Shown here piece after piece: positions 4,709 to 54,225 of a stretch of 64,000 nt of DNA. Within the stretch, counting starts at the first letter, position 1, and each line of letters begins with the position of its first letter. The stretch covers positions 2,752,001 to 2,816,000 of the forward strand of contig CBDCCK010000002.1 in NCBI GenBank assembly GCA_965214835.1, in the 5' to 3' direction. The notes beneath the pieces were generated by a model. The model searched no databases. It saw nothing but the letters and a program-made list of their open reading frames with translations, and was not told where the DNA came from. The translations under genes and the position numbers were made by a program. Origin of the DNA: Nitrosopumilaceae archaeon (GTDB taxonomy: Archaea > Thermoproteota > Nitrososphaeria > Nitrososphaerales > Nitrosopumilaceae).

Positions 4709-4779
4709 GGGCCCCTAGTATAATGGTAGTACGCTTGCCTAAGACTCAAGAGGTCCGGGTTCGATTCCCGGGGGGTCCA
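4709..4779 (+). tRNA. tRNA with AAG (Leu) anticodon on an Ala-type body
   Basis: Acceptor GGGCCCC/GGGGTCC (G3:U70), A73; D stem GTAT/GTAC; anticodon arm CTTGC-CTAAGAC-TCAAG (AAG at 4741-4743, C31:U39 mismatch); variable loop AGGT; T arm CCGGG-TTCGATT-CCCGG. Confidence 0.9.
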
Positions 4780-4835
4780 CGCTAATTCAGAATGAGCGTA
4801 TCTCTCCGAGACAGCGGCTGCCGGTTCACCATATA

Positions 4836-5267
4836 TCACGGATGGATTTTCTCAAACACCATGCCGCATTCCTCCACGGAGCCGTCCCCGGAGGTTACCG
4901 TCGCCCTTACCATGTGGGCTGAATTCGTAACAGATGCGGCAAACGTACCTGACGGCTTCCACGAGTCCCCCGGGCCAAGGGCCGTCCCGTTGAGTCCGTG
5001 TACGGCACCGTCATCATCGAGGAACCTCACCGCTGCAGAGTCGACTGTCGCGGTTCCCGTGTTGTATATGGACGCGGCAAAATACGCCCTCCCCGCCCCG
5101 GTCCCGTGCAGCACAACATCGGATATCTCGCATCCTATGGATCCCGTAAGGTTGTCCACCTGGCCCGTCAGTACAGATGCCACCGCCGCCGCCATGACAG
5201 AGGCAAGTCCTATGAGGAGCGACACTGCGACCAGGCTGTGGATGCCCCGGCGTGTCCCGGTGATCAA
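4836..5267 (-). CDS. Archaeal type IV pilin-like protein
   Basis: Class III signal-like RRG/IHSLVAVSLLIGL, SIYNTGTATV motif; overlaps the VirB4 stop. Confidence 0.75.
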   Translation of the reverse strand: MITGTRRGIHSLVAVSLLIGLASVMAAAVASVLTGQVDNLTGSIGCEISDVVLHGTGAGRAYFAASIYNTGTATVDSAAVRFLDDDGAVHGLNGTALGPGDSWKPSGTFAASVTNSAHMVRATVTSGDGSVEECGMVFEKIHP

Positions 5268-7084
5268 GGTTTCTCCCCGGGCGGGGACGTGTCAAACAGT
5301 GTTCTTTCCTCCCCGGATGGCTCGAACCTCACGTGCAGGCGGTACCTCTTTGTGAGCAGTATGGCGTTTCCCGGATCAAAGGACTTTATCCGGGAGGCCT
5401 CGTGCGGTGATAAATTGAGTATCTTTGCGGCGCTGTCGGTGGCCTCCTCCTCCATGTTCAACAGAATCTTGGTCTCCATGTTGTCCACGATGCGGTTTGC
5501 CCCGCCCCTGTCGCGCGCAATGTCGTCTATGTTCTGCGATACGAACAGGAATTTTACGTTGCGCTTTCTTCCCATGCGGACTATCTGCTCGATGTACTTT
5601 TGTGCGCCCTCCATCTTGAAGATCATCCATGCCTCGTCCAACAAAATTATCTTCTGTACGTTCTGCGGCATGGCCTCTATCCTCTTCCATACCCTGCTCA
5701 GGGCGAGGATCAGCAGCATTATCTCGTGCGGCTTGCCGTCTGCCTTTCTCATCGATATCACGATCCGGTCAGACATCTTCGGGGTTCCGCGCATCATCCT
5801 GGCAAGCGGGCCGTCCACAAGATCGTCTAGCCACTTTTGCGAGCCCGGATTGTCTGCAAGTATATCGTACAGCTCATCGACGCTGCCCACCCTGTCAGAA
5901 AACCTGCGGAACTGCTTTACCACATCCTCGGGCGCCCGGGTCACGCCGCCCAGTATGTCGGCCGCATCCGCAGGCTCGAGCAGTTTGAACGGGTCAAGGC
6001 CCAGCTCGGCGTCCCCGCCGGTTATCTGTATCCGGTCAAGGCCCAGCTCTGGGGCTATGTCGTGGTACTCGCCCATCGGGTCTATCACAAAGCACAGACT
6101 CTCCGGATGCTTCTCAATCAGCCTGCGCAGGATCATCTTTGCCGTAAAGGACTTGCCCGAGCCCGACGTCCCGATTATGGCCATGTTGTAGTTTGTCCGC
6201 TTTTGAAAGTCAAATATCACGGGCGCCCCGCTGTCGGTGTTTATTCCCAGCACGAGTCCGTTTGGGACCTCCAGCATGTCGCCTGACACCATCGAGTAAA
6301 GGCACGACATGCTTCCAAGGTCAAAGGTGAGGGTCTTGCCCCACCCCTCTGCAAGCATGGCCCCCTGCCTTGCCATCTGCGTGCAGAACTCCCCGCCCTG
6401 GATGCTCGATGCGTTGCGCAGCTCCCGGACTGCCGTCCGCAGTCCCTTGAGGTCCTGTGCCACCAGTACGCATATCACCCTGCACCTGAACAGGCCCGAG
6501 TGGTTCTGCCTCATCGACGTCTCTGCGCGCTCCAGCTTTTCGTACTCGACTGCGGCCTGCTTTGAGCGCAATGACGACTCGTAGACCAGCTCCTTTCTCT
6601 TGCGTATGCCCTCGAGCGCGTCCCGGTGCTGCACGGGCTCTATCCAGATGCCCACCTCGTGGCATGCGGGAAATATCCCCGTCGCAATCCACCCCCACGC
6701 AATCTCGTAGGGGAGGCGGCGCAGCGTAAAGCACTTGGCCACGGCTGTCGCCCCGTCGCCGATGTCAACGTCCATGTGGCGCCATCCCTCGCGCAGTATC
6801 CTTATCTGCCTGTGCCCGCCGATGTCGGCGGTATACTCGTAGCGCAGCGCGTCAAATATGTGGTTGAGCGGCTCGCCGCTTGAGACATACAGCTGCAGTA
6901 TGGGCATCCCCACCATCTGCCCGTCCACCGGGATTGTCAGCATCTTTCTTGCCAGTCTTATCCGAATCGGTTTTGATATTACGCGCAGCAAATCAAAGAA
7001 CTCGCCCAGCTTCTTGCGCTGCTTTTGCTCGGGAAGCGTGACAAAGTTTGTCGGCGTTACCGTATAGTGGTAGGATAGCTTCAC
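5264..7084 (-). CDS. virB4: VirB4-family T4SS ATPase
   Basis: Walker A GTSGSGKS, VIDPMGEY, Walker B ILLDEAW, RMGRKRNV..VSQ; GTG start at 7084 chosen to avoid overlap with the divergent gene. Confidence 0.9.
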   Translation of the reverse strand: MKLSYHYTVTPTNFVTLPEQKQRKKLGEFFDLLRVISKPIRIRLARKMLTIPVDGQMVGMPILQLYVSSGEPLNHIFDALRYEYTADIGGHRQIRILREGWRHMDVDIGDGATAVAKCFTLRRLPYEIAWGWIATGIFPACHEVGIWIEPVQHRDALEGIRKRKELVYESSLRSKQAAVEYEKLERAETSMRQNHSGLFRCRVICVLVAQDLKGLRTAVRELRNASSIQGGEFCTQMARQGAMLAEGWGKTLTFDLGSMSCLYSMVSGDMLEVPNGLVLGINTDSGAPVIFDFQKRTNYNMAIIGTSGSGKSFTAKMILRRLIEKHPESLCFVIDPMGEYHDIAPELGLDRIQITGGDAELGLDPFKLLEPADAADILGGVTRAPEDVVKQFRRFSDRVGSVDELYDILADNPGSQKWLDDLVDGPLARMMRGTPKMSDRIVISMRKADGKPHEIMLLILALSRVWKRIEAMPQNVQKIILLDEAWMIFKMEGAQKYIEQIVRMGRKRNVKFLFVSQNIDDIARDRGGANRIVDNMETKILLNMEEEATDSAAKILNLSPHEASRIKSFDPGNAILLTKRYRLHVRFEPSGEERTLFDTSPPGEKP

Positions 7085-7133
7085 ACCAGACAAATCGGGC
7101 CTGACCTTAAAAGGACGGCAACGCTTGACGCAT

Positions 7134-8579
7134 ATGGAGCACCATGTCGGCGAGTTCAGCATAGTGCGGTTTGAGACGGGCGATCCGGGAGACGTGATAA
7201 GGTCATACGGGGTAAACGGTGCCACGATCCACATAACGCGTGACGGCAGGTACCTGGTATCGGAACCCGGGCTGAGCGGCAGGGCGGAGAAGGTGTGGCA
7301 GGGACTGATGGAGAACCTGTACTATTCGTTTGCAGACACGCACGTGGGGGATGCCGTGCAGGCGGTAAAGGACAGGCTTGAGGAGGAGGCAAGGCAGACC
7401 GCCGTCCTTGACGTTTACGGGGCAGAAAAGGAGGCAATCGAGTACTATCTGATACGCGACATCGCCGGATACAGGGAGCTTGACGTGCTGATGAGGGATC
7501 CAGGGATAGAGGACATCATATGCACCAGGTTTGACAGGGAGGTGGCAGTCATCCACCGCGACCACCCGGAGGCCGAGATGCTGAAGACCAACATCAGGTT
7601 TGCAACGCAGGAGTCCCTTGACGGCCTGCTGCAGATAATGGCCCAGCGCAACGGCACGGCCCCCACGATATCCAAGCCCATAGCGTACTGCTCGACCCCG
7701 GACAACGACAGGATAACCATAACGTGGAAGGACGAGGTATCAAGGCCCGGATCCACACTTGCAATTAGAAAGTTTCCAAGGGAGCCGTATACCATAACGC
7801 ACCTGCTGGAATCAGGCGTGCTCAGCCCGCTGCTTGCCGCATACGTCTGGGTGATGAACGACGCAAGATCGTTCTCCTTTATAGTAGGCGAGACGGGCTC
7901 GGGCAAGACCACCATGATAAACGCCCTTGCCTGCATGATGCACCCCCGGTGGCATATACTGACCATAGAGGAGACACGGGAGCTGAGCATACCGCACTAC
8001 TGGAACGAGTACATGGTCACGAGGACCAGCCCGCACCTTGCAAGGTCGGAATACGACATTGACATCATGGGCCTCGGCATGGCCGCGCTGAGAAAAAAGC
8101 CGCACTATGTCATAGTCGGCGAGGTGCGCGGAAGGGAGGCGCAGCAGCTGTTTCAGGTCGCGCTCACCGGACACGGGTGCGTCTCCAGCATACATGCGCC
8201 CGGCGCAGGCGACCTGATGGTCAGGCTGGGCGGAGACGAGATGGGAATCACGCAGACCCAGCAGGCAAGCATCGACTATCTCATCCAGATACAGAAGGTA
8301 AAGACGGGCGGCGGGGTCGTGGCAAGGAGGGTCACGGGTGTAACGGAGGTGGCTGGGGGAACCGTGCCGGAGCTGCACGAGCTGTTCTCGTATAATCCGG
8401 AAGCGGAGTCGTTTCTGCCCGGCGATACAGATGATGTGATATCAGACAGCATAAAGCTGAAGGATGCCACGAGGTTTCTCGGGATAGATGACATCGGAGA
8501 AGACATCGGGAGGCGCATCTCGCTTCTTGACGAGTGCGTGAGGAGCAGGCGCACAGCGTGCGCGACGTGTTTGGGATAA
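7134..8579 (+). CDS. VirB11/FlaI/TadA-type secretion ATPase (possible frameshift near C-terminus)
   Basis: GETGSGKTT, TIEETREL, ALRKKPHYVIVGEVRGREA, TGHG..SSIHA. Confidence 0.9.
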   Translation: MEHHVGEFSIVRFETGDPGDVIRSYGVNGATIHITRDGRYLVSEPGLSGRAEKVWQGLMENLYYSFADTHVGDAVQAVKDRLEEEARQTAVLDVYGAEKEAIEYYLIRDIAGYRELDVLMRDPGIEDIICTRFDREVAVIHRDHPEAEMLKTNIRFATQESLDGLLQIMAQRNGTAPTISKPIAYCSTPDNDRITITWKDEVSRPGSTLAIRKFPREPYTITHLLESGVLSPLLAAYVWVMNDARSFSFIVGETGSGKTTMINALACMMHPRWHILTIEETRELSIPHYWNEYMVTRTSPHLARSEYDIDIMGLGMAALRKKPHYVIVGEVRGREAQQLFQVALTGHGCVSSIHAPGAGDLMVRLGGDEMGITQTQQASIDYLIQIQKVKTGGGVVARRVTGVTEVAGGTVPELHELFSYNPEAESFLPGDTDDVISDSIKLKDATRFLGIDDIGEDIGRRISLLDECVRSRRTACATCLG

Positions 8580-8622
8580 CCTCCAGGTACTACGGCACGG
8601 CATCGCCCGGATCCTGAACATA

Positions 8623-9027
8623 TCATAATGCTTTGTTTGATCCTAGAAATCTCTCATTGGACAGTATTGCAAAACCGTGAAGCGTGGCAAACAGGTATGC
8701 CACTGCCGTGCTTGCCGCCGGGTCGAATCCGTGCACGACTATGACGGGCAGTGATACAACGCATGCCGCCTCGATTGCCATCGTTATAATCCAAGAGGTT
8801 CGGGTTGAAAACCTTCCGTATACAGCAGACAGCATGACGCTCTGCTCGTGTCTTGATATGCGGGAGCTGTTCGCAAGCGTGATGTGCAGATCCAGGTACA
8901 TGGAAGATGCCCACATCCCGAGTATCGCCAGTACAGAGGCCCAGTCTATATCGGGCCTTGCAAAAAAATACAAAAAGAGTACGGATGCCGAGGATATGAT
9001 CCCGGCACGGTCAGGGGCGCGGAACAA
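8623..9027 (-). CDS. Hypothetical membrane protein
   Basis: 134-aa ORF with 3-4 hydrophobic segments, overlapping the end of the VirB2-like gene. Confidence 0.55.
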   Translation of the reverse strand: MFRAPDRAGIISSASVLFLYFFARPDIDWASVLAILGMWASSMYLDLHITLANSSRISRHEQSVMLSAVYGRFSTRTSWIITMAIEAACVVSLPVIVVHGFDPAASTAVAYLFATLHGFAILSNERFLGSNKAL

Positions 9028-9349
9028 GCCTGTACTGGATGCCCTTTATCCCAAAGGCCACGATTATCACCACGGCCCCGCCTATCCGTATCGCGTTGAG
9101 GGCGATGCTTATCAGGCCCGTGACATCCTCTGAGAATATCGCGTTCTCCTGGCACTGCTCGTCCTCGCCTACCGCACAGAACGTGTTGATGTCGACCCCC
9201 ATGAGGGGCGCTATGATTGTAGGTGCTGCAATGATGAATATCATCGCGACGAACGCCTTTTTTCCGAACCTGACAAGGTCTCCCTTGCTTTTTCCCTCGT
9301 CATCGTCTCCAAACATGGTGTGTATGATGCCGTTTGATTTAAGGGACAA
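9011..9349 (-). CDS. VirB2/TrbC-like small two-TM pilin
   Basis: Two hydrophobic helices (KKAFVAMIFIIAAPTII; NAIRIGGAVVIIVAFGIKG) in T4SS context. Confidence 0.55.
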   Translation of the reverse strand: MSLKSNGIIHTMFGDDDEGKSKGDLVRFGKKAFVAMIFIIAAPTIIAPLMGVDINTFCAVGEDEQCQENAIFSEDVTGLISIALNAIRIGGAVVIIVAFGIKGIQYRLVPRP

Positions 9350-9646: not shown

Positions 9647-10363
9647 TTATCTTGGAAACACCTCATAACCGTGCCCCATTGCATTTCCATGACCGTCAGT
9701 TCGAAACTTCCCATAAATCAGATTCCAGTACTTTTCAAATTCATCTGGCGTTGAATGGTGACGAAACGACCCATATGCGACTGCGTCTGCAACCTGAACT
9801 CCTTCAACTGCGGATGAATCGACAAAAACAGGGGGCTCTGTCTGCGCTTTTCTTTGGTAATCTGGCCCCTTTTCTCTCATCTCTCTGATTATGTCGGCAA
9901 TATCCCTGTGAAACCTGCTTGAGCTCCTGTCAATTTTTATGATTCCGTGATTGTTTTCGCCCGATCTTTCTTCTAGAAACTTGTCGAATCTTTTGACTAG
10001 CGACACCCATGCAGTGTTGAATACCTTCCAGCCCGGATATCGACGTCTTAGTGATTCCTTGTCAATTACCACGGAAACTGCGGTGATGTCCAAGCTTGAT
10101 ATGTTACGGTATAATTCGTCTGACATCTCTTGCTGTTTTGAAAAACTCAAACTGGCAAAATCTCCCTTGGCCTTGAAGATGTCGTGCGCATGAATCTCCG
10201 CATCGACATACTGCCCGGTAAAATGCTTTAGTTTGTACTCGTACGTGGATCTTTTGAGATCGTTGATTTTGTCCTCCTCTACAATCACTCCCGACAAAAC
10301 GAAGAAATTTGTGTTATCATTATAGCTCACAGAGCCAGATTCGTCTACATACATAACTGGCAT
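9647..10363 (-). CDS. DUF3800 family protein (RNase H-like)
   Basis: MYVDESG N-terminal motif, EIHA, VDS...VQVADAVA (QxxD) C-terminal motif. Confidence 0.85.
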   Translation of the reverse strand: MPVMYVDESGSVSYNDNTNFFVLSGVIVEEDKINDLKRSTYEYKLKHFTGQYVDAEIHAHDIFKAKGDFASLSFSKQQEMSDELYRNISSLDITAVSVVIDKESLRRRYPGWKVFNTAWVSLVKRFDKFLEERSGENNHGIIKIDRSSSRFHRDIADIIREMREKGPDYQRKAQTEPPVFVDSSAVEGVQVADAVAYGSFRHHSTPDEFEKYWNLIYGKFRTDGHGNAMGHGYEVFPR

Positions 10364-14288: not shown

Positions 14289-15008
14289 ATGTCCCTCTTT
14301 TTTGTCAAGTGTTGTTTAGCAATGCCACACGTTTCGGTTTATGTTGACGAGTCAGGGGATGCAGGATTTGATGACAAGACTTCGGAATTTTTTACTGTAG
14401 GCTACGCATTTGCGGTGGACGGATCAGCGGCAAAGGAGAACAAGACAGTAAAGCGTGCCTTGAAAAACATCAACGCCGGGAGCAAAATGAAAATTTCCGA
14501 GTTCAAGTTTTCGGCAAACACTGACGTGGTCAGAAGGAGGTTCCTAAAAACCGTCAACGGACTGGATGCTGATCTGGGGGTTTTCTGCGTCAGCAAGGAC
14601 TCGGTGAAACCAGACCTCAAAAAAGGCCCCTATGCGTTTTATGAACATGCCGTAGTAGACACAATAGCTGCCCATTTGGTTGAGGATTATATCCGGGCAC
14701 ATGATCATGACAATTCGGTTAGCCTTACCATCGACAGAAGCTTGGCAGAGAATGCAAGGCATTCATTCGACGAATACTGCAGGAATAAAATTCATGATAA
14801 GATGAGGCAAAAAAAATTGAAGGCAGATCTTGCTCTAGGCATTTACCATGAGGATTCAAAAAGCGTGCCCATGCTTCAGGTTGTGGATTATATTGCAAGC
14901 GCGACCCAGGGATTCATTGTTCATGGTGATGCGGCGTTTTACAACGCGTACAGTGGCAAGTTGAAATATCGTGAAAAATGGGATTGGAATGACAAGATAA
15001 AATGGTGA
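14289..15008 (+). CDS. DUF3800 family protein
   Basis: VYVDESGDAG, EFKFS, EDSKSVPMLQVVDYIA. Confidence 0.85.
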   Translation: MSLFFVKCCLAMPHVSVYVDESGDAGFDDKTSEFFTVGYAFAVDGSAAKENKTVKRALKNINAGSKMKISEFKFSANTDVVRRRFLKTVNGLDADLGVFCVSKDSVKPDLKKGPYAFYEHAVVDTIAAHLVEDYIRAHDHDNSVSLTIDRSLAENARHSFDEYCRNKIHDKMRQKKLKADLALGIYHEDSKSVPMLQVVDYIASATQGFIVHGDAAFYNAYSGKLKYREKWDWNDKIKW

Positions 15009-15220
15009 CTCTCGACCTACTTCTCCCTATCTGTCCAAACAGCCGTCATTGGTTCGATCAAGATCCTATTGATTGCTCAATAGACTTTACCCACCTGCTT
15101 GGTATTCTCATGTCTGATATTAAAAGTATAAGCATGGGCAGTCTTGCACAGCCCCGATTTCAGGCACAAAAGACCAGCTGCTTTTACGCGCTCAGGCACG
15201 GTTGTGCAACAGGCTAGGTT

Positions 15221-26530: not shown

Positions 26531-27033
26531 GATACTACGTTAGCCAAACGACATTTACCGGCCAACCTTCCGACATTTACCGGATAATCTTTCAAAGAGT
26601 CTCCACATTTCTTTGTACGTATTAGGTGTTTTTTTCCATCAACCCAGATTCTTGATTTTCGGATTATCTCGTGGGCAGAATGATTGTAACTTTTTGCCAG
26701 CAGAATCATATACAGAGAAAATCTTCCCGGCTCCAAAGACCTTGCCATGTCTATGGACTTTTTGCCACTGTTGGTAAATTTATCGATGATCTTGTCTACG
26801 CCAAGGGATCTTCTCTTCAGCTCAACTATGGCAATTTTTTTATCGTTTTGAAAGACTAGACAGTCACACATTTTTTCCGGCCGCGCCCGTACCAGCCGCT
26901 CCCCCTTTAATATTACCGAGTCTTTTCCCGTATCTATGCGAATGTTACATCCGTGTTCATTGCAGCAGTCTACTACTGCATGTACGTATTTTTCCTTGAT
27001 TGCATGAACAATCATCGGTCTTCGGGAATGCAT
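26476..27033 (-). CDS. Putative PD-(D/E)XK nuclease partner of the ABC ATPase
   Basis: CDCLVF...IAIVELK motif; overlaps the ATPase stop; C-terminal tail runs into the IS remnant. Confidence 0.6.
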   Translation of the reverse strand: MHSRRPMIVHAIKEKYVHAVVDCCNEHGCNIRIDTGKDSVILKGERLVRARPEKMCDCLVFQNDKKIAIVELKRRSLGVDKIIDKFTNSGKKSIDMARSLEPGRFSLYMILLAKSYNHSAHEIIRKSRIWVDGKKHLIRTKKCGDSLKDYPVNVGRLAGKCRLANVVSTSAICSSLPPLSRPCAT

Positions 27034-35115: not shown

Positions 35116-36987
35116 TCAAACCGCCATGGTGGATTCGTCATACTCGCTTTCTGCACCCATTTCCTTGAGGGCCTCGTCGCCGATATCCCTCAGGCTGGAG
35201 CCGAACCTTTTCTCCAAGAGCTCAAGTGCCTTTTTGTTGTTGGTTGACTCGGCCTTGTCGCCCAGGATCTTTCTTATCACGTCGCCCTTGGATGTCAGGA
35301 TTTCTGCTATGTACTCGTCAAAGGTGTCGGTTCCTATGATATAGTGCGAAAAGACGCGGTTTTTCTGCCCTATGCGGTGCAGCCTGTCCTCTGCCTGCGC
35401 GTGCACTGCTGGGGACCAGTCAAGCTCTGCAAATATCACGTATGATGCCTCGGTGAGGTTTATTCCGACGTTGCCTGCGCGCAGGCCGCAGATCATGACC
35501 CGCTCATGCCTGTCCCTCTGGAACGAGTCTATGGCCTTTTGTCTTGCAAAGTCGGACTGGCCGCCGATTATCTGCAGTGGATGGTGCTGCCACAGTCCGT
35601 CTGCGAGGATCTTGTGCACCCTCCTGTGGTGGCAGAACACGACGAATTTTTCGTCCACATAGTCGTCCAAAAGCCCCTTGATGTATTCGATCACGTACGG
35701 AACCTTGGCAAGGCCTGCTATCTGCCGCTCCTCGACCCTCATCTCAAGCAGCAGGCTGTTGAACCTGGCCAGCTTGCGCTTTTTGTCTGCGCCCTCGGCG
35801 GCGGCCCCCAGGGCCATCCTTGCCTCTGCTATCTTGTCGTACAGCTCCCTTATCTTTTCCTCGTACATTTTCTTGTCAATCGGGATGGTCTGCTGGATCC
35901 TGTTCTTCTCGGGAAGGTCTGCCAGCACGTCTGCCTTCCTCCTCCTTATCATGAGGTTTCTCTGCAGGAACTTGGAAAGCTCGTCCTGCTTGAAGGTGAC
36001 TGTCCCGTATATCTCGTCCACATGGTAATAGTCCTCCTTGAACTGCTCCTTGTTGCCAAATATGCCAGGCCTTAGAATCTCGGCGATCTCGTACATCTCC
36101 TCCCCGTTGTTGTATACCGGGGTTCCAGACAGGCCTATTCTGTGGATCGTCGAGTCATGGTTTGCAAGATCCGTGCAGGCGTTAATCTTGTACGTGTTGG
36201 AGCGGCGCAGGTTTTGTATCTCGTCAAAGACTGCCGTTTTCGGGTTTGTTGATACGATGTCCTTTATGCGCTTGTGAACCAGCTCGTAGTTTATGAGGTA
36301 AAAGTCTGCATCCTCAAGATCCTTGCCCTTGCCGGACCGTATTATCTGCACGCGCGGTATGCGCCTGTCTTTGCCCGTGCCCAGCCTGAGAAACCTCTGT
36401 ATCTCCCTTTTCCAGTTCTCCAGCGTGACTAGGGGGGCAACGACGACTACGGGTATCGACTGCGGCTGCTGGGCCACAAATGCCAGGGTCTGAACGGTCT
36501 TGCCAAGCCCCATCTCGTCGGCCATGAGTGCGCTGCCGCCGGTCCTGAGCAAAAAGTCCAGCCCGTACTTTTGAAACGGCATGAGGACCCCCGTAAAGTG
36601 TTCCGGGTTGGGCGTGACGGGGACAAGGCTCGAGATGGTATCCTGTACGTATTTTTTCTCCTTCATCTCCATCAAAAGGCCGTACCACCTGTCCTTGCCC
36701 ACTATGTGCAACGGGTATTCGCCAAGGGCCATGTTCAGCATGCGTACATTCTCGCTTTTCGCGTCAAATGAGAACGGACGCGCCCTGTGCGACGGTATGA
36801 GGCGATCCAGCACCTCCACCACCTCGGGCTGCGCGGTTATGACGATGTTGTGGTGCTTGGCATCCCCGTACAATGCGTTTTTTTGCATGACCTCCATCAT
36901 GCCATACGACTTGGCCCTAGCCATGAATTCGGGAATGCGCCTGGACTTAAAAACTGTCTGTATGTAATTTTTTTTACAACCGTACAA
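35116..36987 (-). CDS. SNF2/HARP-like helicase
   Basis: ADEMGLGKT, FDEIQ, LSGTP, GINLT, QAEDRLHRIGQ. Confidence 0.92.
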   Translation of the reverse strand: MYGCKKNYIQTVFKSRRIPEFMARAKSYGMMEVMQKNALYGDAKHHNIVITAQPEVVEVLDRLIPSHRARPFSFDAKSENVRMLNMALGEYPLHIVGKDRWYGLLMEMKEKKYVQDTISSLVPVTPNPEHFTGVLMPFQKYGLDFLLRTGGSALMADEMGLGKTVQTLAFVAQQPQSIPVVVVAPLVTLENWKREIQRFLRLGTGKDRRIPRVQIIRSGKGKDLEDADFYLINYELVHKRIKDIVSTNPKTAVFDEIQNLRRSNTYKINACTDLANHDSTIHRIGLSGTPVYNNGEEMYEIAEILRPGIFGNKEQFKEDYYHVDEIYGTVTFKQDELSKFLQRNLMIRRRKADVLADLPEKNRIQQTIPIDKKMYEEKIRELYDKIAEARMALGAAAEGADKKRKLARFNSLLLEMRVEERQIAGLAKVPYVIEYIKGLLDDYVDEKFVVFCHHRRVHKILADGLWQHHPLQIIGGQSDFARQKAIDSFQRDRHERVMICGLRAGNVGINLTEASYVIFAELDWSPAVHAQAEDRLHRIGQKNRVFSHYIIGTDTFDEYIAEILTSKGDVIRKILGDKAESTNNKKALELLEKRFGSSLRDIGDEALKEMGAESEYDESTMAV

Positions 36988-37198
36988 GGTTACCTAGACT
37001 TTCATTTAGGCATCAATGGTGAGTATCCAAGACTGACAATCGATCGCAGGGGGACGGACAATTTTCGTCAATGGATCTAGACTAGATGTGATTATACACA
37101 GTGCCTATGTGAAGCAGTCGATCATGGTTTTGACACGCCGTGCCTGCCTGCACAAAAATGATCGGCCTTCGATCGCAGGCGCTACGCGCCCGTCCCAG

Positions 37199-38887
37199 TC
37201 ATGATTCCATCTGTTCTGCAAGCTGCGGGTATTTTGCCTCCAGATCCGAGACCAGCTCCCTGCTCTTTGTGACGTGGTTTGGTATGTTCTTCATGATCCT
37301 AATGTGCCTCTTTATGGCATCATAATCGTGTATGGTCATGGCAGACTTGACCAGCATGGGAAGCTGCTCTGCATACTTTTCATAATACTGGTTTGGGTAT
37401 TTGCGGGAGAACTCCCCACTGTATGCGTCAAGCAGATCCAGGTTGCAGCTCTCAAGTGCGGCCTTGACGGCATCATCGGCCTTTTTCTCATGCAATAGCA
37501 CATCTATGCAGGTATGGATATGCCCATAGCTCCTGAGATCAGCAAGAATCATCCCCAGCTGCGACTCCCAGTCGTCGGCGATGTCCTTTATCTTTTCATA
37601 GTACGTCCAGTTGGATGTCGCAATGAACATATCGCGTAGGGCGCCGACCTGGTTTGGATCCCCCTTTTGCTCCAGAATAAAGCTCCGTATCCGCGCAAAT
37701 TGCTCGGGATTTTTAAACATCTTGGAGGCCTTGTGTGCGATCCGCAGCGCCTCATCAGCGTCGCTTTCCATCAGATTCCAAATGTACTTTGTGCACAGGC
37801 TCTCGCTTTGCTCGTGATGATCAGAGAGAAAGTCCATCATGTCGTCACTGCCGCCCTCCATCCTCTCTAGCACCGATGAGGCCGCCTCTAGGATCTCGGT
37901 CTGATCCCGCTGCAGGCGGTCTGGTGCAACGACGGGTTTGCCGCCAAGAATCTGCGACTCAAAAAGTGACTTGCAGTACCGGGCGTCCTCGATGCCGTCT
38001 AGCATGTTTAAGAGCGCGCCAAGGTAGATTGGTGCAAAGTGGCCGACCTTTTCTTGCATGTGCCTCTCAAAGAAATACAGGATATGATCCCGCTTTTTGT
38101 CGTGATCTAGCTTGAGCCTGCGTATGAGCGTGACGGCATCCAACATGGAACGCCTGACCTGTCCCGTATAGTAGTGCTTCATGTTGTCTACCACGTCGAT
38201 ATTCTCCGAGATGTACTCGCACATGTGCCTGTACACCTCTATTGCCTTTTCGGGATGGCCACAGTCGTTGTAACTTGTCGCCATATTCTCGATTGAGTCA
38301 AACGAGACCCTGTTTTTGCTCGTGATGCGGCCGTTTTTGCCTTTTGCGCCCTCGTACAGGCGCTTCATATGCTGCCTGCACTTGCGTGAAGGCGGTGTCT
38401 TGTCATTTACTGCCGCAGGAGGCCTTTTGACGTCCCATCCCTTTGGCATTACGCCCCTTCCTGTGCCGATACCCTGTAATGCATTCCTTACGAACTCCAA
38501 GACAGCACTAGGATCATCATACGGCATGCCGTAATCCCGGGCGCTACTGCCGTGGCCTCCTCTCGGCGCATACTTGTAGTCAAGATCCACGTCGTTTATT
38601 ATGTCGACGTTTCCTGTGCGGTCATACACACTAAACAGTACGGCCACTATGTGCTTGCAAAATCCATCACGGTCATACGGGCACGTACAGTGTAAAATGG
38701 ACTTTTTGTAGTTCTTTACTATTGAGACCGAATATACCTTCGTGTCTGTCACCTTTGCTGTCACAACATCATCGTCTATGTGCAGCTGGCCCACGCGTCC
38801 CTCATGGAAATACCGGATCCCCTCCATGTGTGAACTGATGGTGGACATCTCTTCTATTATCTGCAGGTGGGGCTGGTCGTAGCTCAT
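37199..38887 (-). CDS. SWIM zinc-finger protein
   Basis: CTCPY...CKHIVAV followed by helical repeats. Confidence 0.85.
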   Translation of the reverse strand: MSYDQPHLQIIEEMSTISSHMEGIRYFHEGRVGQLHIDDDVVTAKVTDTKVYSVSIVKNYKKSILHCTCPYDRDGFCKHIVAVLFSVYDRTGNVDIINDVDLDYKYAPRGGHGSSARDYGMPYDDPSAVLEFVRNALQGIGTGRGVMPKGWDVKRPPAAVNDKTPPSRKCRQHMKRLYEGAKGKNGRITSKNRVSFDSIENMATSYNDCGHPEKAIEVYRHMCEYISENIDVVDNMKHYYTGQVRRSMLDAVTLIRRLKLDHDKKRDHILYFFERHMQEKVGHFAPIYLGALLNMLDGIEDARYCKSLFESQILGGKPVVAPDRLQRDQTEILEAASSVLERMEGGSDDMMDFLSDHHEQSESLCTKYIWNLMESDADEALRIAHKASKMFKNPEQFARIRSFILEQKGDPNQVGALRDMFIATSNWTYYEKIKDIADDWESQLGMILADLRSYGHIHTCIDVLLHEKKADDAVKAALESCNLDLLDAYSGEFSRKYPNQYYEKYAEQLPMLVKSAMTIHDYDAIKRHIRIMKNIPNHVTKSRELVSDLEAKYPQLAEQMES

Positions 38888-44555: not shown

Positions 44556-44557
44556 CC

Positions 44558-47104
44558 ATGTCAGTACAACAAGCACAAAGAGTAACCGAGCTGCCTCCCT
44601 CCATGCTGGTGTCTGCGACATATGACAGCAAGAACAGGTGCGCAGTACTAAAGTTCTACGAACCAGAGTCGCAGAAAATCATCCTATGGCGGGACGAGAT
44701 AGGCCACAGGCCGTACTGCTACTCAAAGCTAAACCCGGACGAGCTTGGATTCATCGCAGGCAGGAAGGATCTGATAGAAATCAAGGACGTCCGGCGAAAC
44801 GACCTGCTCAGGAGCGAGGAGATTCCGCTATCAAAGATTGTCGTAGAGGATCCGCTGGCCATAGGCGGCACTGCAACGGACAAAAGCCTGAGAAACGTAA
44901 TCGAGACGTGGGAGTCAGACATAAAATACTATGAGAGTTATCTTTACGACAGATCGTTGATCATCGGCAAGTTCTACGAGATCAAGGACTCAAAGGTGAC
45001 CCCGCACGACATGGAGATCCCCCCGGAGGTAAAAGAGTCGCTCAAGACCCTGCTGTGGGAGAATATCTCAGATGAGAAGATGGTAGATCCCGGGCAGTTT
45101 GAGGAGTACATTTCAGACTGGGCGGATCTGCTCAACCAGCCCATTCCAAAGATGAGACGGGTGAGCGTGGACATAGAGGTAGAGGCGGAGGTCGGCCGCA
45201 TTCCGGATCCCAAGCTGGCCGAAAGGAAGGTTACGGCCATAGGGTTTTCAGGAAGCGACGGGTTCAGGGAGATCCTTGTGCTAAGGAAAGCGGGGGTTCA
45301 GCAGGGGGCCAACGACCTGGACTTTGAGCCAAGGTTCTACGAGGAGGAGGACGAAAGACAGATGATACTGGACGCCTTTGGCCTGCTCAGGGAGTTTGCG
45401 TTCGTCCTGACGTATAACGGGGACGAGTTTGATCTGCCGTACCTTTTCAATCGGGCAGAGAGGCTGGGAGTCAAGACGGAGGACAACCCGCTGTACATGA
45501 TGAGGGACTCGGCCACCCTAAAGCACGGCGTGCACATCGACCTGTACAGGACCCTGTCCAACAGATCCTTTCAGATCTACGCATTCAGCCACAAGTATTC
45601 GGACTTTTCGCTCAACAGCGTCTCAAAGGCGCTGCTGGGCAAGGAGAAGATCGACTATGGCGTGGAGTTAAACGACCTGACGCTTTACCAGACTGCAAAC
45701 TATTGCTACAACGACGCGCTACTGACCTACGAGCTTGCAAGCTTTAACAGCGACCTGCTGATGAACCTGCTAGTCGTAATCGCAAGAATCGGCAGGATGC
45801 CGATTGACGACATTGCAAGGCTCGGGGTGTCGCAGTGGATTCGCAGCCTGATGTATTACGAGCACCGCCAGAGAAACGCGCTGATTCCAAAGAGGGAGGA
45901 GCTGCAAAAGCACTCGGCTGCGGTGTCCTCAGAGGCCGTAATCAAGGACAAAAAGTACCGGGGCGGCCTGGTCGTGGATCCCATGGAGGGAATCCACTTT
46001 AACGTCACGGTGATGGACTTTGCAAGCCTGTATCCGAGCATCATCAAGGTGCGAAACCTGTCCTATGAGACGGTAAGGTGTCCGCACGAGGAGTGCAGGG
46101 CAAACACCATCCCGCAGACCAGCCACTGGGTATGCACCAAGAAAAACGGGATGACGGCCATGCTCATAGGCTCGCTACGGGACCTTAGGGTAAACTACTA
46201 CAAGAGCCTGTCAAAAAGGGAGTCGATTACAGAGGAGCAGAGGCAGCAGTACACGGTCGTCAGCCAGGCGCTCAAGGTCATCCTCAACGCCAGCTACGGT
46301 GTAATGGGCGCAGAGATATTCCCCCTGTACTTCCTGCCTGCCGCGGAGGCCACGACTGCCATCGGGAGGCACATAATTTTGCAGACGATTGAAAGGTGCA
46401 AGGAGTTTGGAGTCGAGGTGCTATACGGCGACACGGACTCGCTGTTCATCAAGAACCCCACGCAGGAGCAGATCGACAGGGTCATCAAGCAGGCAAAAAA
46501 GGATCACGGTGTTGACCTTGAGGTGGACAAGGAGTACAGGTATGCGGTGCTGAGCAACAGAAAGAAGAACTACCTGGGGGTCACAAGGTCAGGCAAGGTG
46601 GACGTCAAGGGGCTGACGGGGAAAAAATCCCACACGCCGGGGTTCATCAAAAAGCTGTTTTATGAGCTGCTCGACGTGCTATCCGAGGTCGAAACAATAG
46701 AGGGCTTTGAGCGCGCCAAAAAGGAGATCAGCGACAGGATTGCAGGCTATGCAAAAAAGGTGCAGGAAAAGGAGATCCCGCTTGAGGATCTGGCGTACAA
46801 CGTCATGATAAGCAAGGCGCCCTCAGAGTATGTCAAGACGGTCCCCCAGCACATCAGGGCCGCCAAGATGCTAGAGTCCACAAGGGAGATCAAAAAGGGT
46901 GACATCATATCGTACATCAAGACGCTGGGCAAGCCAGGTGTAAAGCCAGTCGAGCTTGCAAGGCAGACCGAGATTGATCCGAAGAAATACCTCGAGTTCA
47001 TGGAGTCGACACTTGACCAGATAACGTCCTCCATGGATCTTGACTTTGACACCATACTGGGCAAGCCAAAGCAGACCGGCCTGGACCAGTTTTTCTGGAA
47101 CTGA
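44558..47104 (+). CDS. polB1: Family B DNA polymerase (PolB1)
   Basis: DIEV, DFASLYPS, KVILNASYG, YGDTDS, KKNY. Confidence 0.97.
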   Translation: MSVQQAQRVTELPPSMLVSATYDSKNRCAVLKFYEPESQKIILWRDEIGHRPYCYSKLNPDELGFIAGRKDLIEIKDVRRNDLLRSEEIPLSKIVVEDPLAIGGTATDKSLRNVIETWESDIKYYESYLYDRSLIIGKFYEIKDSKVTPHDMEIPPEVKESLKTLLWENISDEKMVDPGQFEEYISDWADLLNQPIPKMRRVSVDIEVEAEVGRIPDPKLAERKVTAIGFSGSDGFREILVLRKAGVQQGANDLDFEPRFYEEEDERQMILDAFGLLREFAFVLTYNGDEFDLPYLFNRAERLGVKTEDNPLYMMRDSATLKHGVHIDLYRTLSNRSFQIYAFSHKYSDFSLNSVSKALLGKEKIDYGVELNDLTLYQTANYCYNDALLTYELASFNSDLLMNLLVVIARIGRMPIDDIARLGVSQWIRSLMYYEHRQRNALIPKREELQKHSAAVSSEAVIKDKKYRGGLVVDPMEGIHFNVTVMDFASLYPSIIKVRNLSYETVRCPHEECRANTIPQTSHWVCTKKNGMTAMLIGSLRDLRVNYYKSLSKRESITEEQRQQYTVVSQALKVILNASYGVMGAEIFPLYFLPAAEATTAIGRHIILQTIERCKEFGVEVLYGDTDSLFIKNPTQEQIDRVIKQAKKDHGVDLEVDKEYRYAVLSNRKKNYLGVTRSGKVDVKGLTGKKSHTPGFIKKLFYELLDVLSEVETIEGFERAKKEISDRIAGYAKKVQEKEIPLEDLAYNVMISKAPSEYVKTVPQHIRAAKMLESTREIKKGDIISYIKTLGKPGVKPVELARQTEIDPKKYLEFMESTLDQITSSMDLDFDTILGKPKQTGLDQFFWN

Positions 47105-53523: not shown

Positions 53524-53616
53524 GTATGTGGTCACTTCCCCCTGCTGGCCAGGCGTGAAAATCATAACCCTACATGCCAATTCGTGCCTGATTGATAGGG
53601 GTAGGTGACCTCGTAC
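53524..53616. mobile_element. MITE family A (93 bp)
   Basis: GTATGTGGTCAC...GTGACCTCGTAC; 8-bp TSD AATGAAAG. Confidence 0.9.
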
Positions 53617-53634
53617 AATGAAAGTATGTTTATG

Positions 53635-53871
53635 TCAAGTCCAGCGGTGGGGATTCCTGCAAGGACACCCTCGACACATACCCCCCCCCCCACCACAGAA
53701 TGGGTCTAGCAACGATACAGGTTTAGTCTCTTGGATCATCTTTTTTGCAAGAGCTGGAATCATAGATGCCACATACGGATGCATTCCATGAGTGGCATAA
53801 GTGGTGCTGATTTTCTTGAATTGGAAATCATCACGCAGAATAGGTCTGGCTAGTCGTGCATGTGTCGTCAT
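53635..53871 (-). pseudogene. DNA methyltransferase N-terminal fragment
   Basis: THGMHPYVA...LLDPFCGGG; frame lost in a poly-G run. Confidence 0.75.
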
Positions 53872-54044
53872 TTTTCACACCCACCTTTCACCATTATTTT
53901 TTTGCCCTCAATCACAAATTGAATCGATTTGGGGTTATTAAGGAAATCTCTGATCGGTTTGGGTACTCGGCAGATTATACTATGCCTTCCATCATCTGAC
54001 AGTTTTACACAAAACCTAGTTTCGTCTTCCTTCCATCTTGTCAA
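53868..54044 (-). CDS. Small AbrB-like DNA-binding protein (58 aa)
   Basis: TTG start; MTRWKEDETRFCVKL..CRVPKPIRDFLNNPKSIQFVIEGKKIMV; ATGA-coupled to the MTase. Confidence 0.6.
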   Translation of the reverse strand: MTRWKEDETRFCVKLSDDGRHSIICRVPKPIRDFLNNPKSIQFVIEGKKIMVKGGCEK

Positions 54045-54077
54045 TAATCCATTTACGCTGACAGGTTATATTAAGCG

Positions 54078-54142
54078 ATCGGATAACTATGCATACGGAT
54101 AGCAGCAAGGATTAAATAAGCATACGGATAATATCGCGTATG
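54078..54142. promoter_or_regulatory. tRNA promoter with operator-like repeats
   Basis: TTAAATA at 54112-54118; GCATACGGATA at 54091 and 54120; imperfect palindrome CATACGGATAATATCGCGTATG at 54121-54142. Confidence 0.6.
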
Positions 54143-54225
54143 GCGAGGTTGCTTAGGCAGGTAGAGCGACGATCTGAAAAATCGTTGGGTGTGCACCTAC
54201 GGGGGTTCGAATCCCCCTCTCGCCG
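54142..54225 (+). tRNA. tRNA with GAA (Phe) anticodon on a Ser-type class II body
   Basis: Acceptor GGCGAGG/TCTCGCC, G73; anticodon arm ACGAT-CTGAAAA-ATCGT (GAA at 54176-54178); 15-nt variable arm TGGGTGTGCACCTAC; T arm GGGGG-TTCGAAT-CCCCC. Confidence 0.92.

What the first reader, a model, noticed from the sequence alone, without database searches (positions are those of the whole stretch)
4709..54225. Two unrelated anticodon-swapped tRNAs converge on anticodon-blind synthetases
Both tRNAs I found in the window lie in mobile DNA, differ in sequence and class, and use bodies (Ala, Ser) that are charged regardless of anticodon. Both would replace a large hydrophobic residue (Leu, Phe) with a small one, which is strongly proteotoxic. 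Each has an adjacent candidate off-switch. This recurrence argues against random decay and suggests a family of mobile mistranslator tRNAs in archaea.
Basis: inference. Interest (0 to 1): 0.9.

Follow-up and report, generated by a model that had tools for sequence, protein, structure and literature searches.

The report
Mobile archaeal tRNAs with mismatched anticodons
An ammonia-oxidising archaeon carries intact transfer RNA genes, in mobile or defence-rich DNA, that look as if they would be loaded with alanine or serine yet read codons for other amino acids, and the alanine type always comes with a small matching element that may switch it off.

Summary
tRNA1 (4709-4780, anticodon AAG) has the alanine marks G3:U70 and A73. 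tRNA2 (54142-54226, anticodon GAA) has a long variable arm and G73, the serine marks.

tRNA1 is one of six such genes in this genome, with anticodons AAG x2, GAA, GAG, GUC and UCU. I found 19 in Nitrosopumilaceae genomes; 12 read Phe or Leu codons. Their stems carry compensatory changes, so they are not decaying.

New: 15 of the 19 carry, about 49 nt upstream, a copy of their own anticodon arm that changes with the anticodon. It is preceded by a hairpin and an A-run. Read on the minus strand this gives promoter, anticodon-complementary RNA, hairpin and U-run. I read it as a candidate anti-tRNA small RNA, an RNA off-switch. Its strand and expression are not shown.

tRNA2 has no such partner. 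It sits inside an IS6-family element between the promoter region and the transposase gene, as do two paralogues.

The closest known relatives are the bacterial allo-tRNAs. Charging and mistranslation are untested.

The parts
4709..4780 (+). tRNA1: class I tRNA with G3:U70, A73 and anticodon AAG (4741-4743). The anticodon arm is 4734-4750 and pair 31:39 is a C-U mismatch.
4660..4676 (.). Upstream copy of tRNA1's own anticodon stem-loop, 17 of 17 nt identical, starting 49 nt before the tRNA.
4630..4678 (-). Predicted anti-tRNA small RNA. On the minus strand it reads anticodon-arm complement (the loop carries the codon CUU), then a 5-bp hairpin (4639-4655), then U8 (4630-4637). Its strand and expression are not shown.
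   Evidence: inference
4678..4704 (.). AT-rich spacer with two TATA-like boxes. ATTATAGG (4678-4685) lies about 27 nt before the tRNA on the plus strand. TTTAAAAT, read on the minus strand (4694-4704), lies about 26 nt before the start of the anticodon-arm complement. These are predicted crossed divergent promoters.
   Evidence: read from the sequence; inference
5264..7234 (-). TraG/VirD4-like and HerA/FtsK-like ATPase, a conjugation-type gene next to tRNA1.
7125..8579 (+). T2SSE (VirB11-like) secretion ATPase.
54017..54141 (+). Conserved 5' region of the IS6-family element, with two GCATACGGATA repeats. In other Nitrosopumilaceae genomes this region is followed directly by the transposase start codon.
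54142..54226 (+). tRNA2: class II tRNA with a long variable arm, G73 and anticodon GAA (54176-54178). It is inserted between the IS6 5' region and the transposase ORF.
54277..55239 (+). IS6-family transposase gene: an N-terminal zinc-finger ORF (54277-54717) and a DDE_Tnp_IS240 ORF (from 54718). It is cut at 55239/55240 by another IS and resumes after 56657.
55240..56657 (-). IS4-like element of 1418 bp (DDE_Tnp_1) inserted into the IS6 transposase gene. It has many copies in the genome.
56860..56877 (-). Right terminal inverted repeat of the IS6-family element. The same repeat abuts nucleotides 6-7 of two truncated tRNA1-type units elsewhere.

Best explanation
Both tRNAs are intact genes kept by selection. 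Each belongs to one of two tRNA families, found here in mobile or defence-rich DNA, whose bodies carry the marks read by a synthetase that ignores the anticodon. For tRNA1 that is alanyl-tRNA synthetase, through G1:C72, G2:C71, G3:U70, C4:G69 and A73. For tRNA2 it is seryl-tRNA synthetase, through the long variable arm and G73. In both families the anticodon arm changes freely.

If they are charged as their bodies predict, tRNA1 would put Ala at CUU codons and tRNA2 would put Ser at UUC/UUU codons.

The Ala-type gene is one half of a two-part module. A small RNA gene lies head to head with it and is predicted to be transcribed divergently from an overlapping promoter region. It would encode an RNA complementary to the tRNA's own anticodon arm and part of its D arm, ending in a hairpin and a U-run. 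I propose that this RNA pairs with the tRNA or its precursor and silences it. The pair would then behave like an RNA-only toxin-antitoxin or addiction module of mobile and defence islands.

The Ser-type gene has no such partner. It rides in the 5' untranslated region of an IS6-family transposase gene and would be released from the same transcript.

Shown: the anatomy, the identity marks, the covariation, the distribution and the conservation. Inferred: charging, decoding, toxicity, the transcribed strand of the partner element, and silencing.
For: 1. Intact tRNAs. Rfam scores are 60.8 and 54.0 bits.

2. Family size and conservation. Nineteen G3:U70/A73 tRNAs with non-Ala anticodons were collected in all. 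One search analysed 19 sequences: 18 of these plus the decayed A3:U70 copy on L013; the L012 GAU member was skipped by the script.
- 369 of 399 stem positions pair in those 19 sequences.
- G1:C72, G2:C71 and C4:G69 are invariant in 19 of 19.
- Position 3:70 is G:U in 18 of 19.
- Acceptor pairs 5-7, the D stem, the anticodon stem and T-stem pair 49:65 each show 2-4 Watson-Crick pair types.

3. Anticodons are polymorphic on one scaffold. Across the 19 tRNAs: GAA 7, AAG 3, GAG 2, GAU 2, GUC 2, UCU 2, AUC 1.

4. Descent from tRNA-Ala. The nearest relatives of the UCU member in other genera are canonical tRNA-Ala(UGC) genes, in 7 of 8 loci examined.

5. The genome has a single AlaRS gene.

6. The partner element.
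- In this genome, 6 of 63 ARAGORN predictions of 160 nt or less have an upstream copy of their own anticodon arm. They are exactly the six G3:U70 non-Ala tRNAs.
- The copy is also present in 9 of 13 members from other genomes, at offset -48 to -53.
- Over the first 14 nt of the arm, the match to a unit's own upstream region averages 13.4 of 14. The match to other units' upstream regions averages 7.8. A unit's own region is the best or tied-best match in 14 of 15 units.
- A hairpin next to a run of 6-8 U is predicted on the minus strand in 16 of 16 units. The stem sequences differ between subfamilies (GCUAG/CUAGC, AGUAC/GUACU, AGUGC/GCACU, GGUGC/GCACC).
- The predicted RNA pairs best with its own tRNA in 6 of 6 units of this genome. 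Own tRNA gives -50 to -59 kcal/mol; the best tRNA outside the family gives -34 to -44.

7. Orphan partners. Three units in this genome and three elsewhere keep the partner element but lose the tRNA after 3-9 nt. In two of them the end of an IS6 element abuts the tRNA stub.

8. Setting in this genome: conjugation ATPases, SAM and DNA methylases, ResIII, Mrr, GmrSD, HNH, an actin-like partition protein and many IS elements.

9. tRNA2.
- Two of seven IS6-like copies carry a class II G73 tRNA 40-50 nt before the transposase start, with anticodons GAA and UAU. A third copy (C2:702318-702406) shares the same flanks.
- Their anticodon stems and variable-arm stems differ by fully compensated changes.
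- In another genome the same IS 5' region runs straight into the start codon.

10. Precedents.
- Yeast tRNA-Ala with non-Ala anticodons mistranslates, and the GAA variant slows growth (PMC10543346, abstract and section 12).
- A human tRNA-Ser G35A variant puts Ser at Phe codons (PMC12993449, abstract in a search listing).
- Bacterial allo-tRNAs with Ser or Ala identity and 35 different anticodons insert Ser at Leu codons, kill E. coli, and lie near toxin-antitoxin and transposon genes (PMC5389517, passages read).
Against: - Nothing shows that either RNA is made, charged or used. No RNA run was listed, and the four runs laid were metagenome contigs.
- The strand of the partner element is not settled. 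The formal pair count on the 16-sequence alignment is weak: 69% of cells pair, and 4 of 500 shuffles reach that value. The minus-strand fold is more stable than the plus-strand fold in only 12 of 16 related sequences.
- Substitutions between the tRNA arm and its copy do not clearly favour G-U-compatible changes for a minus-strand RNA: 15 of 23 transitions, plus 4 transversions.
- In several units the 3' strand of the copied arm has diverged. What is kept is about 13-14 nt of sequence identity, not a hairpin.
- Four of the 19 Ala-type tRNAs (from G088, G213, G062 and G168) have no upstream copy; the best match is 9 of 17 or less.
- The neighbours of six units in G004 and G019 show no mobile or defence family. 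Six of 10 ORFs have no Pfam match and the rest look like housekeeping genes.
- The codons read are common in this genome (CUU 14.5, UUU+UUC 35.3 per 1000 codons). Expressed mistranslators would be costly to the host itself.
- GAA, GUC, GAU and UCU anticodons are strong marks for PheRS, AspRS, IleRS and ArgRS (general knowledge), so those members could be charged by two enzymes.
Confidence: 0.4

Rival explanations
1. The matched element is a plus-strand 5' leader of the pre-tRNA, not an antisense RNA. It would be a half-tRNA mimic (a D-like hairpin plus an anticodon stem-loop copy) released by RNase P. It could then act as a decoy or competitor for something that reads the anticodon arm, such as an anticodon nuclease, a modification enzyme or the decoding site.
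For: A TATA-like TTTTTAATTA lies just upstream of the A-run in most units. The copy has the same sense as the tRNA. In some units it folds as a stem-loop on the plus strand. The substitution-direction test does not exclude it.
Against: A start site about 26 nt after that TATA box would fall inside the hairpin, so the hairpin would be cut (read from the sequence; inference from usual archaeal promoter spacing). A-run-then-hairpin has no known role, whereas hairpin-then-U-run is a standard 3' end. In G019 and G004 units the copied arm no longer forms a stem.
Confidence: 0.2
2. The tRNA-shaped RNAs are not used in translation. tRNA2 would be a processing signal: RNase P and RNase Z cuts would free or regulate the IS6 transposase mRNA. 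The tRNA1 family would be decoys or spare parts against tRNA-cutting defences, or recombination targets. Their anticodons would then drift because nothing reads them.
For: tRNA2 and two paralogues lie in the transposase 5' untranslated region. The paralogue at C2:702318-702406 has a 6-nt anticodon loop. Pair 31:39 is unpaired in 12 of 19 Ala-type members. Many allo-tRNA(UAU) species were inactive in translation tests (PMC5389517, passage read).
Against: Of the 19 sequences analysed (all but the decayed L013 copy) keep the full Ala acceptor set, a 7-nt loop, U33 and A14/G18G19/T-loop features. All but the two UCU members keep a purine at 37. Anticodons are not random: 12 of 19 read Phe or Leu codons. 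Selection for a copy that tracks the anticodon loop itself is hard to explain if the loop is not read.
Confidence: 0.2
3. They are ordinary helper tRNAs of mobile elements, charged according to their anticodon (Phe, Asp, Ile, Arg). G3:U70 would be a harmless inheritance from a tRNA-Ala ancestor.
For: PheRS, AspRS, IleRS and ArgRS rely on the anticodon (general knowledge; review PMC9976931 seen only in a search listing). Mobile elements often carry tRNAs.
Against: Five of the 19 carry Leu anticodons (AAG, GAG) on a class I body that lacks the long arm archaeal LeuRS needs (general knowledge). tRNA2 has G73, not the A73 of the genome's tRNA-Phe. G3:U70 alone confers Ala charging in all systems tested (PMC10543346 abstract; PMC5389517 passage). 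The genome already has canonical tRNAs for these anticodons.
Confidence: 0.1
4. They are decaying pseudogenes or leftovers of integration at tRNA genes (att-site duplications).
For: Thaumarchaeal elements often integrate into tRNA genes (PMC6563490, passages read). Truncated units exist. The copy on L013 has A3:U70 and stem mismatches.
Against: 92% of stem positions pair, with compensatory changes across genera. The partial copy sits at a fixed 48-53 nt in units whose sequences no longer align by BLAST. Integration leaves 3' fragments a whole element away, not a 5' half 30 nt away.
Confidence: 0.05

Closest known systems
Bacterial allo-tRNAs (Mukai et al. 2017, PMC5389517; passages read)
   Same: They are natural tRNAs with Ser identity (long variable arm, G73/U73) or Ala identity (G3:U70) and highly polymorphic non-cognate anticodons, with UAU and GUC among the commonest. 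They are active and toxic when expressed in E. coli. They are found near toxin-antitoxin genes and transposon-related ORFs.
   Different: Allo-tRNAs are bacterial and are defined by an 8/4 or 9/3 acceptor/T-stem layout. The tRNAs here are archaeal with the ordinary 7/5 layout. The Ala type here is class I. The passages I read describe no matched anticodon-arm copy and no placement in an IS 5' UTR.
tRNA-Ala and tRNA-Ser anticodon variants that mistranslate in eukaryotes (yeast: PMC10543346, abstract and section 12 read; human tRNA-Ser AGA G35A: PMC12993449, abstract in a listing)
   Same: The logic is the same: the synthetase ignores the anticodon, so an anticodon change gives Ala or Ser at other codons. 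tRNA2's GAA is one change from the Ser anticodon GGA, like the human G35A variant.
   Different: Those are single-gene variants or engineered constructs. They are not conserved multi-copy families on mobile DNA, and they have no partner element.
Bacterial tRNA-Pro mistranslators with a dedicated ProRS (PMC10404621; abstract in a listing only)
   Same: They are naturally kept tRNAs that decode non-cognate codons.
   Different: They depend on a second, specialised synthetase. Here only one AlaRS gene is present and the identity marks are the standard ones.
RNA toxin-antitoxin pairs (type I/III antisense control; type VIII such as CreT-CreA, which traps tRNA-Arg(UCU)) - recalled, not from a call
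   Same: Each has a small RNA partner encoded beside a harmful RNA, works through base pairing, lies on mobile or defence DNA, and leaves orphan antitoxin-like remnants.
   Different: I know of no described case where the toxin is itself a tRNA and the partner is complementary to its anticodon arm. My searches found none. Function here is untested.
IS6-family insertion sequences (Pfam DDE_Tnp_IS240)
   Same: The DDE domain, the GG-starting terminal repeat and the compact size match.
   Different: This one has an N-terminal zinc-finger ORF and carries a tRNA gene between its 5' region and the transposase start, in 2 of 7 intact-start copies plus one remnant. The left end is only tentatively placed.

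Membership tests
tRNA (Rfam RF00005) | A cloverleaf that scores above the curated gathering score | tested here: met
   60.8 and 54.0 bits against 29. ARAGORN calls both.
tRNA-Ala identity set | A G3:U70 wobble pair in the acceptor stem | tested here: met
   tRNA1 has G3:U70. The pair is present in 18 of the 19 sequences analysed; the exception is the decayed L013 copy, with A3:U70.
tRNA-Ala identity set | A73 discriminator and the G1:C72, G2:C71, C4:G69 context of the genome's own tRNA-Ala | tested here: met
   Invariant in 19 of 19 sequences and identical to the canonical Ala(GGC/UGC/CGC) genes.
tRNA-Ala identity set | Ala anticodon (NGC) | tested here: not met
   The anticodon is AAG.
tRNA-Ala identity set | Charged by AlaRS | not testable with these tools
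   One AlaRS gene is present. No biochemical data.
tRNA-Ser identity set | Long variable arm (class II) and G73 | tested here: met
   tRNA2 has a 15-nt variable arm and G73. The genome's tRNA-Leu genes have A73.
tRNA-Ser identity set | Ser anticodon (NGA or GCU) | tested here: not met
   The anticodon is GAA.
allo-tRNA (PMC5389517) | 8/4 or 9/3 acceptor/T-stem layout | tested here: not met
   Both tRNAs fit 7/5. The 7-bp acceptor and 5-bp T stems pair across the family.
allo-tRNA (PMC5389517) | Ser or Ala identity marks combined with polymorphic non-cognate anticodons | tested here: met
   Seven different anticodons on the Ala scaffold. GAA, UAU, CAG and CCU on class II/G73 bodies.
RNA toxin-antitoxin module | A partner RNA complementary to the toxin RNA | tested here: inconclusive
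   The sequence complementarity exists if the minus strand is transcribed. The strand is not determined.
RNA toxin-antitoxin module | The toxin harms the cell and the partner neutralises it | not testable with these tools
   No expression or growth data. No RNA run was listed.
IS6 family | DDE_Tnp_IS240 transposase and terminal inverted repeats | tested here: inconclusive
   The domain is found at E 1e-10. The right repeat is exact at 56860-56877. No matching left repeat is in the window. The left end is inferred only from homology with other genomes.

The most novel reading that the evidence does not exclude
Archaea of the Nitrosopumilaceae carry RNA-only addiction or abortive-defence modules. 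The toxin would be a mis-acylating tRNA: an Ala body with a Phe, Leu, Ile, Asp or Arg anticodon. The antitoxin would be a roughly 45-nt small RNA made from a crossed divergent promoter, whose loop carries the matching codon and which pairs with the tRNA's anticodon and D arms. The anticodon and its antidote would co-evolve as a lock-and-key pair. A second lineage, Ser-body tRNAs, would spread as passengers inside IS6 elements.
Probability: 0.3. Interest if true: 0.95.

Novelty: new variant of a known kind. Interest (0 to 1): 0.8.

Why it matters
Deliberate or tolerated mistranslation by natural tRNAs is known from bacteria (allo-tRNAs, tRNA-Pro variants) and from human variants. My searches found no description of it for archaea, nor of a built-in RNA partner.

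A tRNA whose anticodon arm is mirrored by a neighbouring element that changes with it is a clean, testable case of RNA-RNA co-evolution. If the partner is an antisense silencer, the tRNA would be the first tRNA known to act as the toxin of a toxin-antitoxin pair. That would offer a new way for mobile or defence islands to hold a host hostage or to abort infection.

The IS6-borne tRNAs show that insertion sequences can carry tRNA passengers inside the transposase transcript.

The modules are small (about 190 nt) and easy to synthesise and test. They may also be useful as switchable missense suppressors.

Tried and rejected
- RNA evidence: no RNA holder was listed for window 4300-9300.
- The four runs laid were metagenome contigs. 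They showed paralogue-like variants at matching places in the copy (4667) and in the tRNA (4741). They also showed a loose end with a GAA version of the anticodon arm on an A-like scaffold. They cannot show strand, ends or expression.
- A viral-contig scan with the upstream-element pattern gave 0 hits.
- A metagenome-contig scan with a relaxed pattern gave 10 loci. On alignment none carries the unit, so all are chance matches.
- The idea that G-U-compatible substitutions prove a minus-strand RNA looked good on the first 10 units (8 of 9 transitions). It fell to 15 of 23 when six more units were added, so I dropped it as evidence.
- A formal covariation count for the two hairpins was weak, because the hairpin sits in different registers in different subfamilies.
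- The idea that the tRNAs hit only codons rare in the host and common in AT-rich invaders is not supported here. CUU, UUY and GAY are common in this genome's long ORFs.
- Whole-unit and single-tRNA folding gave no significant z-scores.
- Rfam at a permissive threshold names nothing for the upstream element.
- A search for a second AlaRS found only one gene.
- No orthologue of tRNA2 appeared in 300 other family genomes. The hits were the T arm of tRNA-Ser or the IS 5' region.
- Supplementary tables of the papers cited were not available. Those of PMC5389517 and PMC6563490 could hold archaeal or tRNA-cargo cases that I could not see.

Full report
**1. The observation**

ARAGORN finds two tRNAs in the 64-kb window: 4709-4780 (+), anticodon AAG, and 54142-54226 (+), anticodon GAA. 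Rfam's tRNA model scores them 60.8 and 54.0 bits, against a gathering score of 29.

tRNA1 is a 71-nt class I tRNA. Its acceptor stem is GGGCCCC/GGGGUCC, which gives G1:C72, G2:C71, G3:U70 and C4:G69, and its discriminator is A73. It has a C-U mismatch at 31:39.

tRNA2 is a class II tRNA with a 7/5 layout, a 15-nt variable arm and G73.

The genome's own tRNA-Ala genes share tRNA1's first four acceptor pairs and A73. Its tRNA-Ser genes share tRNA2's G73 and T arm. Its tRNA-Leu genes have A73. So the two body/anticodon conflicts are real.

**2. tRNA1 belongs to a family**

The window lies on a 3.2-Mb contig of a two-contig genome. Record titles of related loci place the family in the Nitrosopumilaceae.

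ARAGORN on the whole genome gives 65 predictions in intron mode. Six of them combine G3:U70 and A73 with a non-Ala anticodon:

| Place on C2 | Anticodon |
|---|---|
| 66616-66687c | AAG |
| 2234423-2234494 | GAA |
| 2749119-2749192c (2.8 kb left of the window) | GUC |
| the window copy | AAG |
| 3019690-3019761 | GAG |
| 2568241-2568318 | UCU |

Four of them share identical acceptor, D and T arms and differ only in the anticodon arm, including a compensated C:G to U:A change at 29:41.

A pattern for Ala-type acceptor and T arms was run over 301 genomes of the family.
- Most genomes have three or fewer matches (the GGC, CGC and UGC alanine tRNAs). This genome has 8, G004 has 6, G213 has 6 and G019 has 5.
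- Among the matches printed, further non-Ala members are: G004 (AAG, GAA x3), G019 (GAA, GAU), G088 (GAA), G213 (GAA), G062 (GUC) and G168 (AUC). One sequence in G143 was unclear.
- 634 matches were not printed, so 7 of 301 genomes is a lower bound.
- The tallies include seven unpublished genomes (G117, G283, G229, G102, G281, G251, G116). No named example comes from them.

Two more genomes reached through a genome-contig scan add GAU, UCU and GAG members.

In all I have 19 such tRNAs: GAA 7, AAG 3, GAG 2, GAU 2, GUC 2, UCU 2 and AUC 1. There is also one decayed copy with A3:U70, on L013.

**3. The family is not decaying**

One search analysed 19 sequences: 18 of the 19 family tRNAs plus the decayed L013 copy. 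The L012 GAU member was skipped by the script.
- 369 of 399 stem positions pair. Eight of the misses come from my D-stem rule failing on the two UCU members.
- G1:C72, G2:C71 and C4:G69 are invariant.
- Acceptor pairs 5-7, the D stem, the anticodon stem and pair 49:65 show two to four Watson-Crick pair types.
- Pair 31:39 is unpaired in 12 of 19. A 4-bp anticodon stem is therefore a family trait.

The nearest relatives of the UCU member in other genera are ordinary tRNA-Ala(UGC) genes, in 7 of 8 loci examined. The genome has one AlaRS gene.

**4. The matched upstream element (the main new finding)**

About 49 nt before tRNA1, at 4660-4676, lies a 17-of-17 copy of its own anticodon stem-loop.

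- An 11-mer scan of the 250-nt flanks of 63 ARAGORN predictions finds such an upstream self-copy for six genes only. They are exactly the six Ala-type conflicted tRNAs.
- The copy tracks the anticodon: AAG, GAA, GAG, GUC and UCU each appear in both places.
- It is also present, at -48 to -53, in 9 of 13 members from other genomes. It is absent from those of G088, G213, G062 and G168.
- Over the first 14 nt of the arm, the match to a unit's own upstream region averages 13.4. The match to other units' upstream regions averages 7.8. A unit's own region is best or tied-best in 14 of 15 units.

The architecture holds even where the sequences no longer align. It runs: A-run of 6-8, a hairpin that resembles the tRNA's D arm, the anticodon-arm copy, an AT-rich spacer with two TATA-like boxes, a short conserved motif, then the tRNA.

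**5. Which strand is read?**

On the minus strand the element reads: TATA-like box, then about 26 nt on the complement of the anticodon arm (its loop carries the codon), then a hairpin, then U6-8.
- That 3' hairpin plus U-run is predicted in 16 of 16 units, with different stem sequences in different subfamilies.
- The plus-strand TATA-like box upstream of the A-run would start transcription inside the hairpin (read; usual archaeal spacing assumed).
- The predicted minus-strand RNA pairs best with its own tRNA in 6 of 6 units of this genome.

Against this:
- The formal pair count is weak.
- The minus fold is more stable in only 12 of 16 related sequences.
- The direction of substitutions between arm and copy is not decisive: 15 of 23 transitions are G-U compatible.
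- In G004 and G019 units the copied arm no longer forms a stem. What is kept is sequence identity over 13-14 nt, as expected for a pairing partner.

I put the minus-strand reading at about two to one over a plus-strand leader.

**6. Truncated units**

Three loci in this genome and three in other genomes keep the upstream element and the first 3-9 nt of the tRNA, then break off. In two of them the break is the terminal repeat of the same IS6 family that sits next to tRNA2. Loss of the tRNA with survival of the partner is what one expects if the tRNA is the harmful half.

**7. Setting**

- In this genome the units lie beside a TraG/VirD4-like ATPase and a T2SSE ATPase (the window copy).
- Other units lie beside a SAM methyltransferase with a DNA methylase and ResIII or Mrr, beside GmrSD and HNH nucleases, and beside an actin-like partition protein.
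- The window as a whole is dense in transposases and holds two DUF3800 genes, an AbiEii-like ATPase, and SNF2 and SWIM proteins.
- In G004 and G019 this link is not seen. Six of the 10 neighbouring ORFs scanned have no Pfam family, and the rest look like housekeeping genes.

**8. tRNA2**

- It is single-copy and has no orthologue in 300 other family genomes.
- It lies 50 nt before the start of a zinc-finger plus DDE_Tnp_IS240 transposase gene. That gene is cut at 55240 by a 1418-bp IS4-like element and resumes after 56657. The IS6 right repeat is at 56860-56877.
- The 125 nt upstream of tRNA2 are conserved (77-85% identity) in other genera. There, in L058, they run straight into the transposase start codon. 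So tRNA2 is an insertion in the transposase 5' untranslated region.
- Two of seven IS6-like copies in this genome carry such a tRNA (GAA here; UAU at C2:381278-381363c). A third copy, at C2:702318-702406 with a 6-nt loop, has the same flanks, but its transposase has been replaced by another IS end.
- Their anticodon and variable-arm stems differ by fully compensated changes, so the fold is under selection.
- No copy or complement of the anticodon arm lies within 700 nt.
- Two further class II/G73 tRNAs, with CAG and CCU anticodons, lie elsewhere in the genome.

**9. Mechanism**

Shown: the identity marks, the polymorphic anticodons, the conserved folds, the co-varying partner element and the IS placement.

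Inferred:
- AlaRS and SerRS charge these tRNAs, so that Ala goes in at CUU and Ser at UUY.
- This is harmful. The codons are common here: CUU 14.5 and UUU+UUC 35.3 per 1000 codons.
- The partner RNA silences the Ala-type tRNA by pairing with it.
- The crossed promoters make expression of the two RNAs mutually exclusive.

**10. Comparison with what is known**

- The closest match is the bacterial allo-tRNAs. They have Ser or Ala identity and 35 different anticodons, are active and lethal in E. coli, and lie near toxin-antitoxin and transposon genes (PMC5389517, passages read). Their defining 8/4 or 9/3 layout is not met here.
- Yeast tRNA-Ala anticodon variants mistranslate, and the GAA variant has an intermediate growth cost (PMC10543346, abstract and section 12).
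- A human tRNA-Ser G35A variant puts Ser at Phe codons (PMC12993449, abstract in a listing).
- A survey of integrated elements in Thaumarchaeota treats tRNA genes only as integration targets in the passages I read (PMC6563490).
- Six literature searches found no archaeal case and no tRNA paired with an anticodon-matched partner RNA. Supplements were closed.

**11. Verdict**

The finding is confirmed and extended. It is a new archaeal variant of naturally polymorphic, anticodon-blind tRNAs, with a new and testable partner element. Its function remains unproven.

Noticed in passing
window 15003-15096 (-), 14289-15008 (+), 9647-10363 (-): An Rfam DUF3800-X RNA match (44.3 bits against a gathering score of 38.2) abuts the 3' end of a DUF3800 gene on the opposite strand. 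A second DUF3800 gene lies 4 kb away.
   Followed up: no
window 55240-56657 and 48.8-50.25 kb; about 30 places on C2: A 1418-bp IS4-like element (427-aa DDE_Tnp_1 transposase) is present as two inverted copies that flank the tRNA2 region, with 248 nt of 100% identical arms. It has about 30 near-identical copies in the genome.
   Followed up: partly
G000 C2:182875, 1090321c, 1824008, 1826707, 2887467c: A five-copy repeat of about 95 nt that ARAGORN calls as long 'tRNAs' with varying anticodons (GAU, GAA, CAG). It has a tRNA-like T arm. Its nature is unknown.
   Followed up: no
G000 C2:65293-65382 (-): A second copy of the initiator-like tRNA-Met with a 12-nt insertion in the D loop lies 1.2 kb from the Ala-type unit at 66616-66687. 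It may mark an element boundary.
   Followed up: no
G000 C2:914323-914410 (+), 148333-148419 (-): Two more class II tRNAs have G73 and non-Ser anticodons: CAG (Leu) and CCU (Arg). ARAGORN listed no other tRNA-Arg(CCU).
   Followed up: partly
family-wide: Pair 31:39 is unpaired in 12 of the 19 sequences analysed, giving a 4-bp anticodon stem. A 2026 paper (PMC13092985, abstract in a listing) links 4-bp anticodon stems to relaxed decoding.
   Followed up: no
G000 C2, more than 40 sites: The IS6 terminal repeat occurs at many sites without a transposase nearby, often as two same-sense copies 91 nt apart. This suggests derived miniature elements.
   Followed up: no
runs X2-X4 laid on window 4300-5300: Metagenome contigs hold a variant anticodon arm with GAA on the scaffold that carries AAG at C2:66616-66687. 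They also hold variants at matching places of the copy (4667) and the tRNA (4741). These are probably paralogues or strains.
   Followed up: partly
window 54-788 (-), 27012-28541 (-), 35116-38887 (-), 44558-47104 (+): The island also encodes a TFIIB-like protein, an AAA_15/AbiEii-like ATPase, an SNF2 helicase next to a SWIM protein, and a family B DNA polymerase.
   Followed up: no
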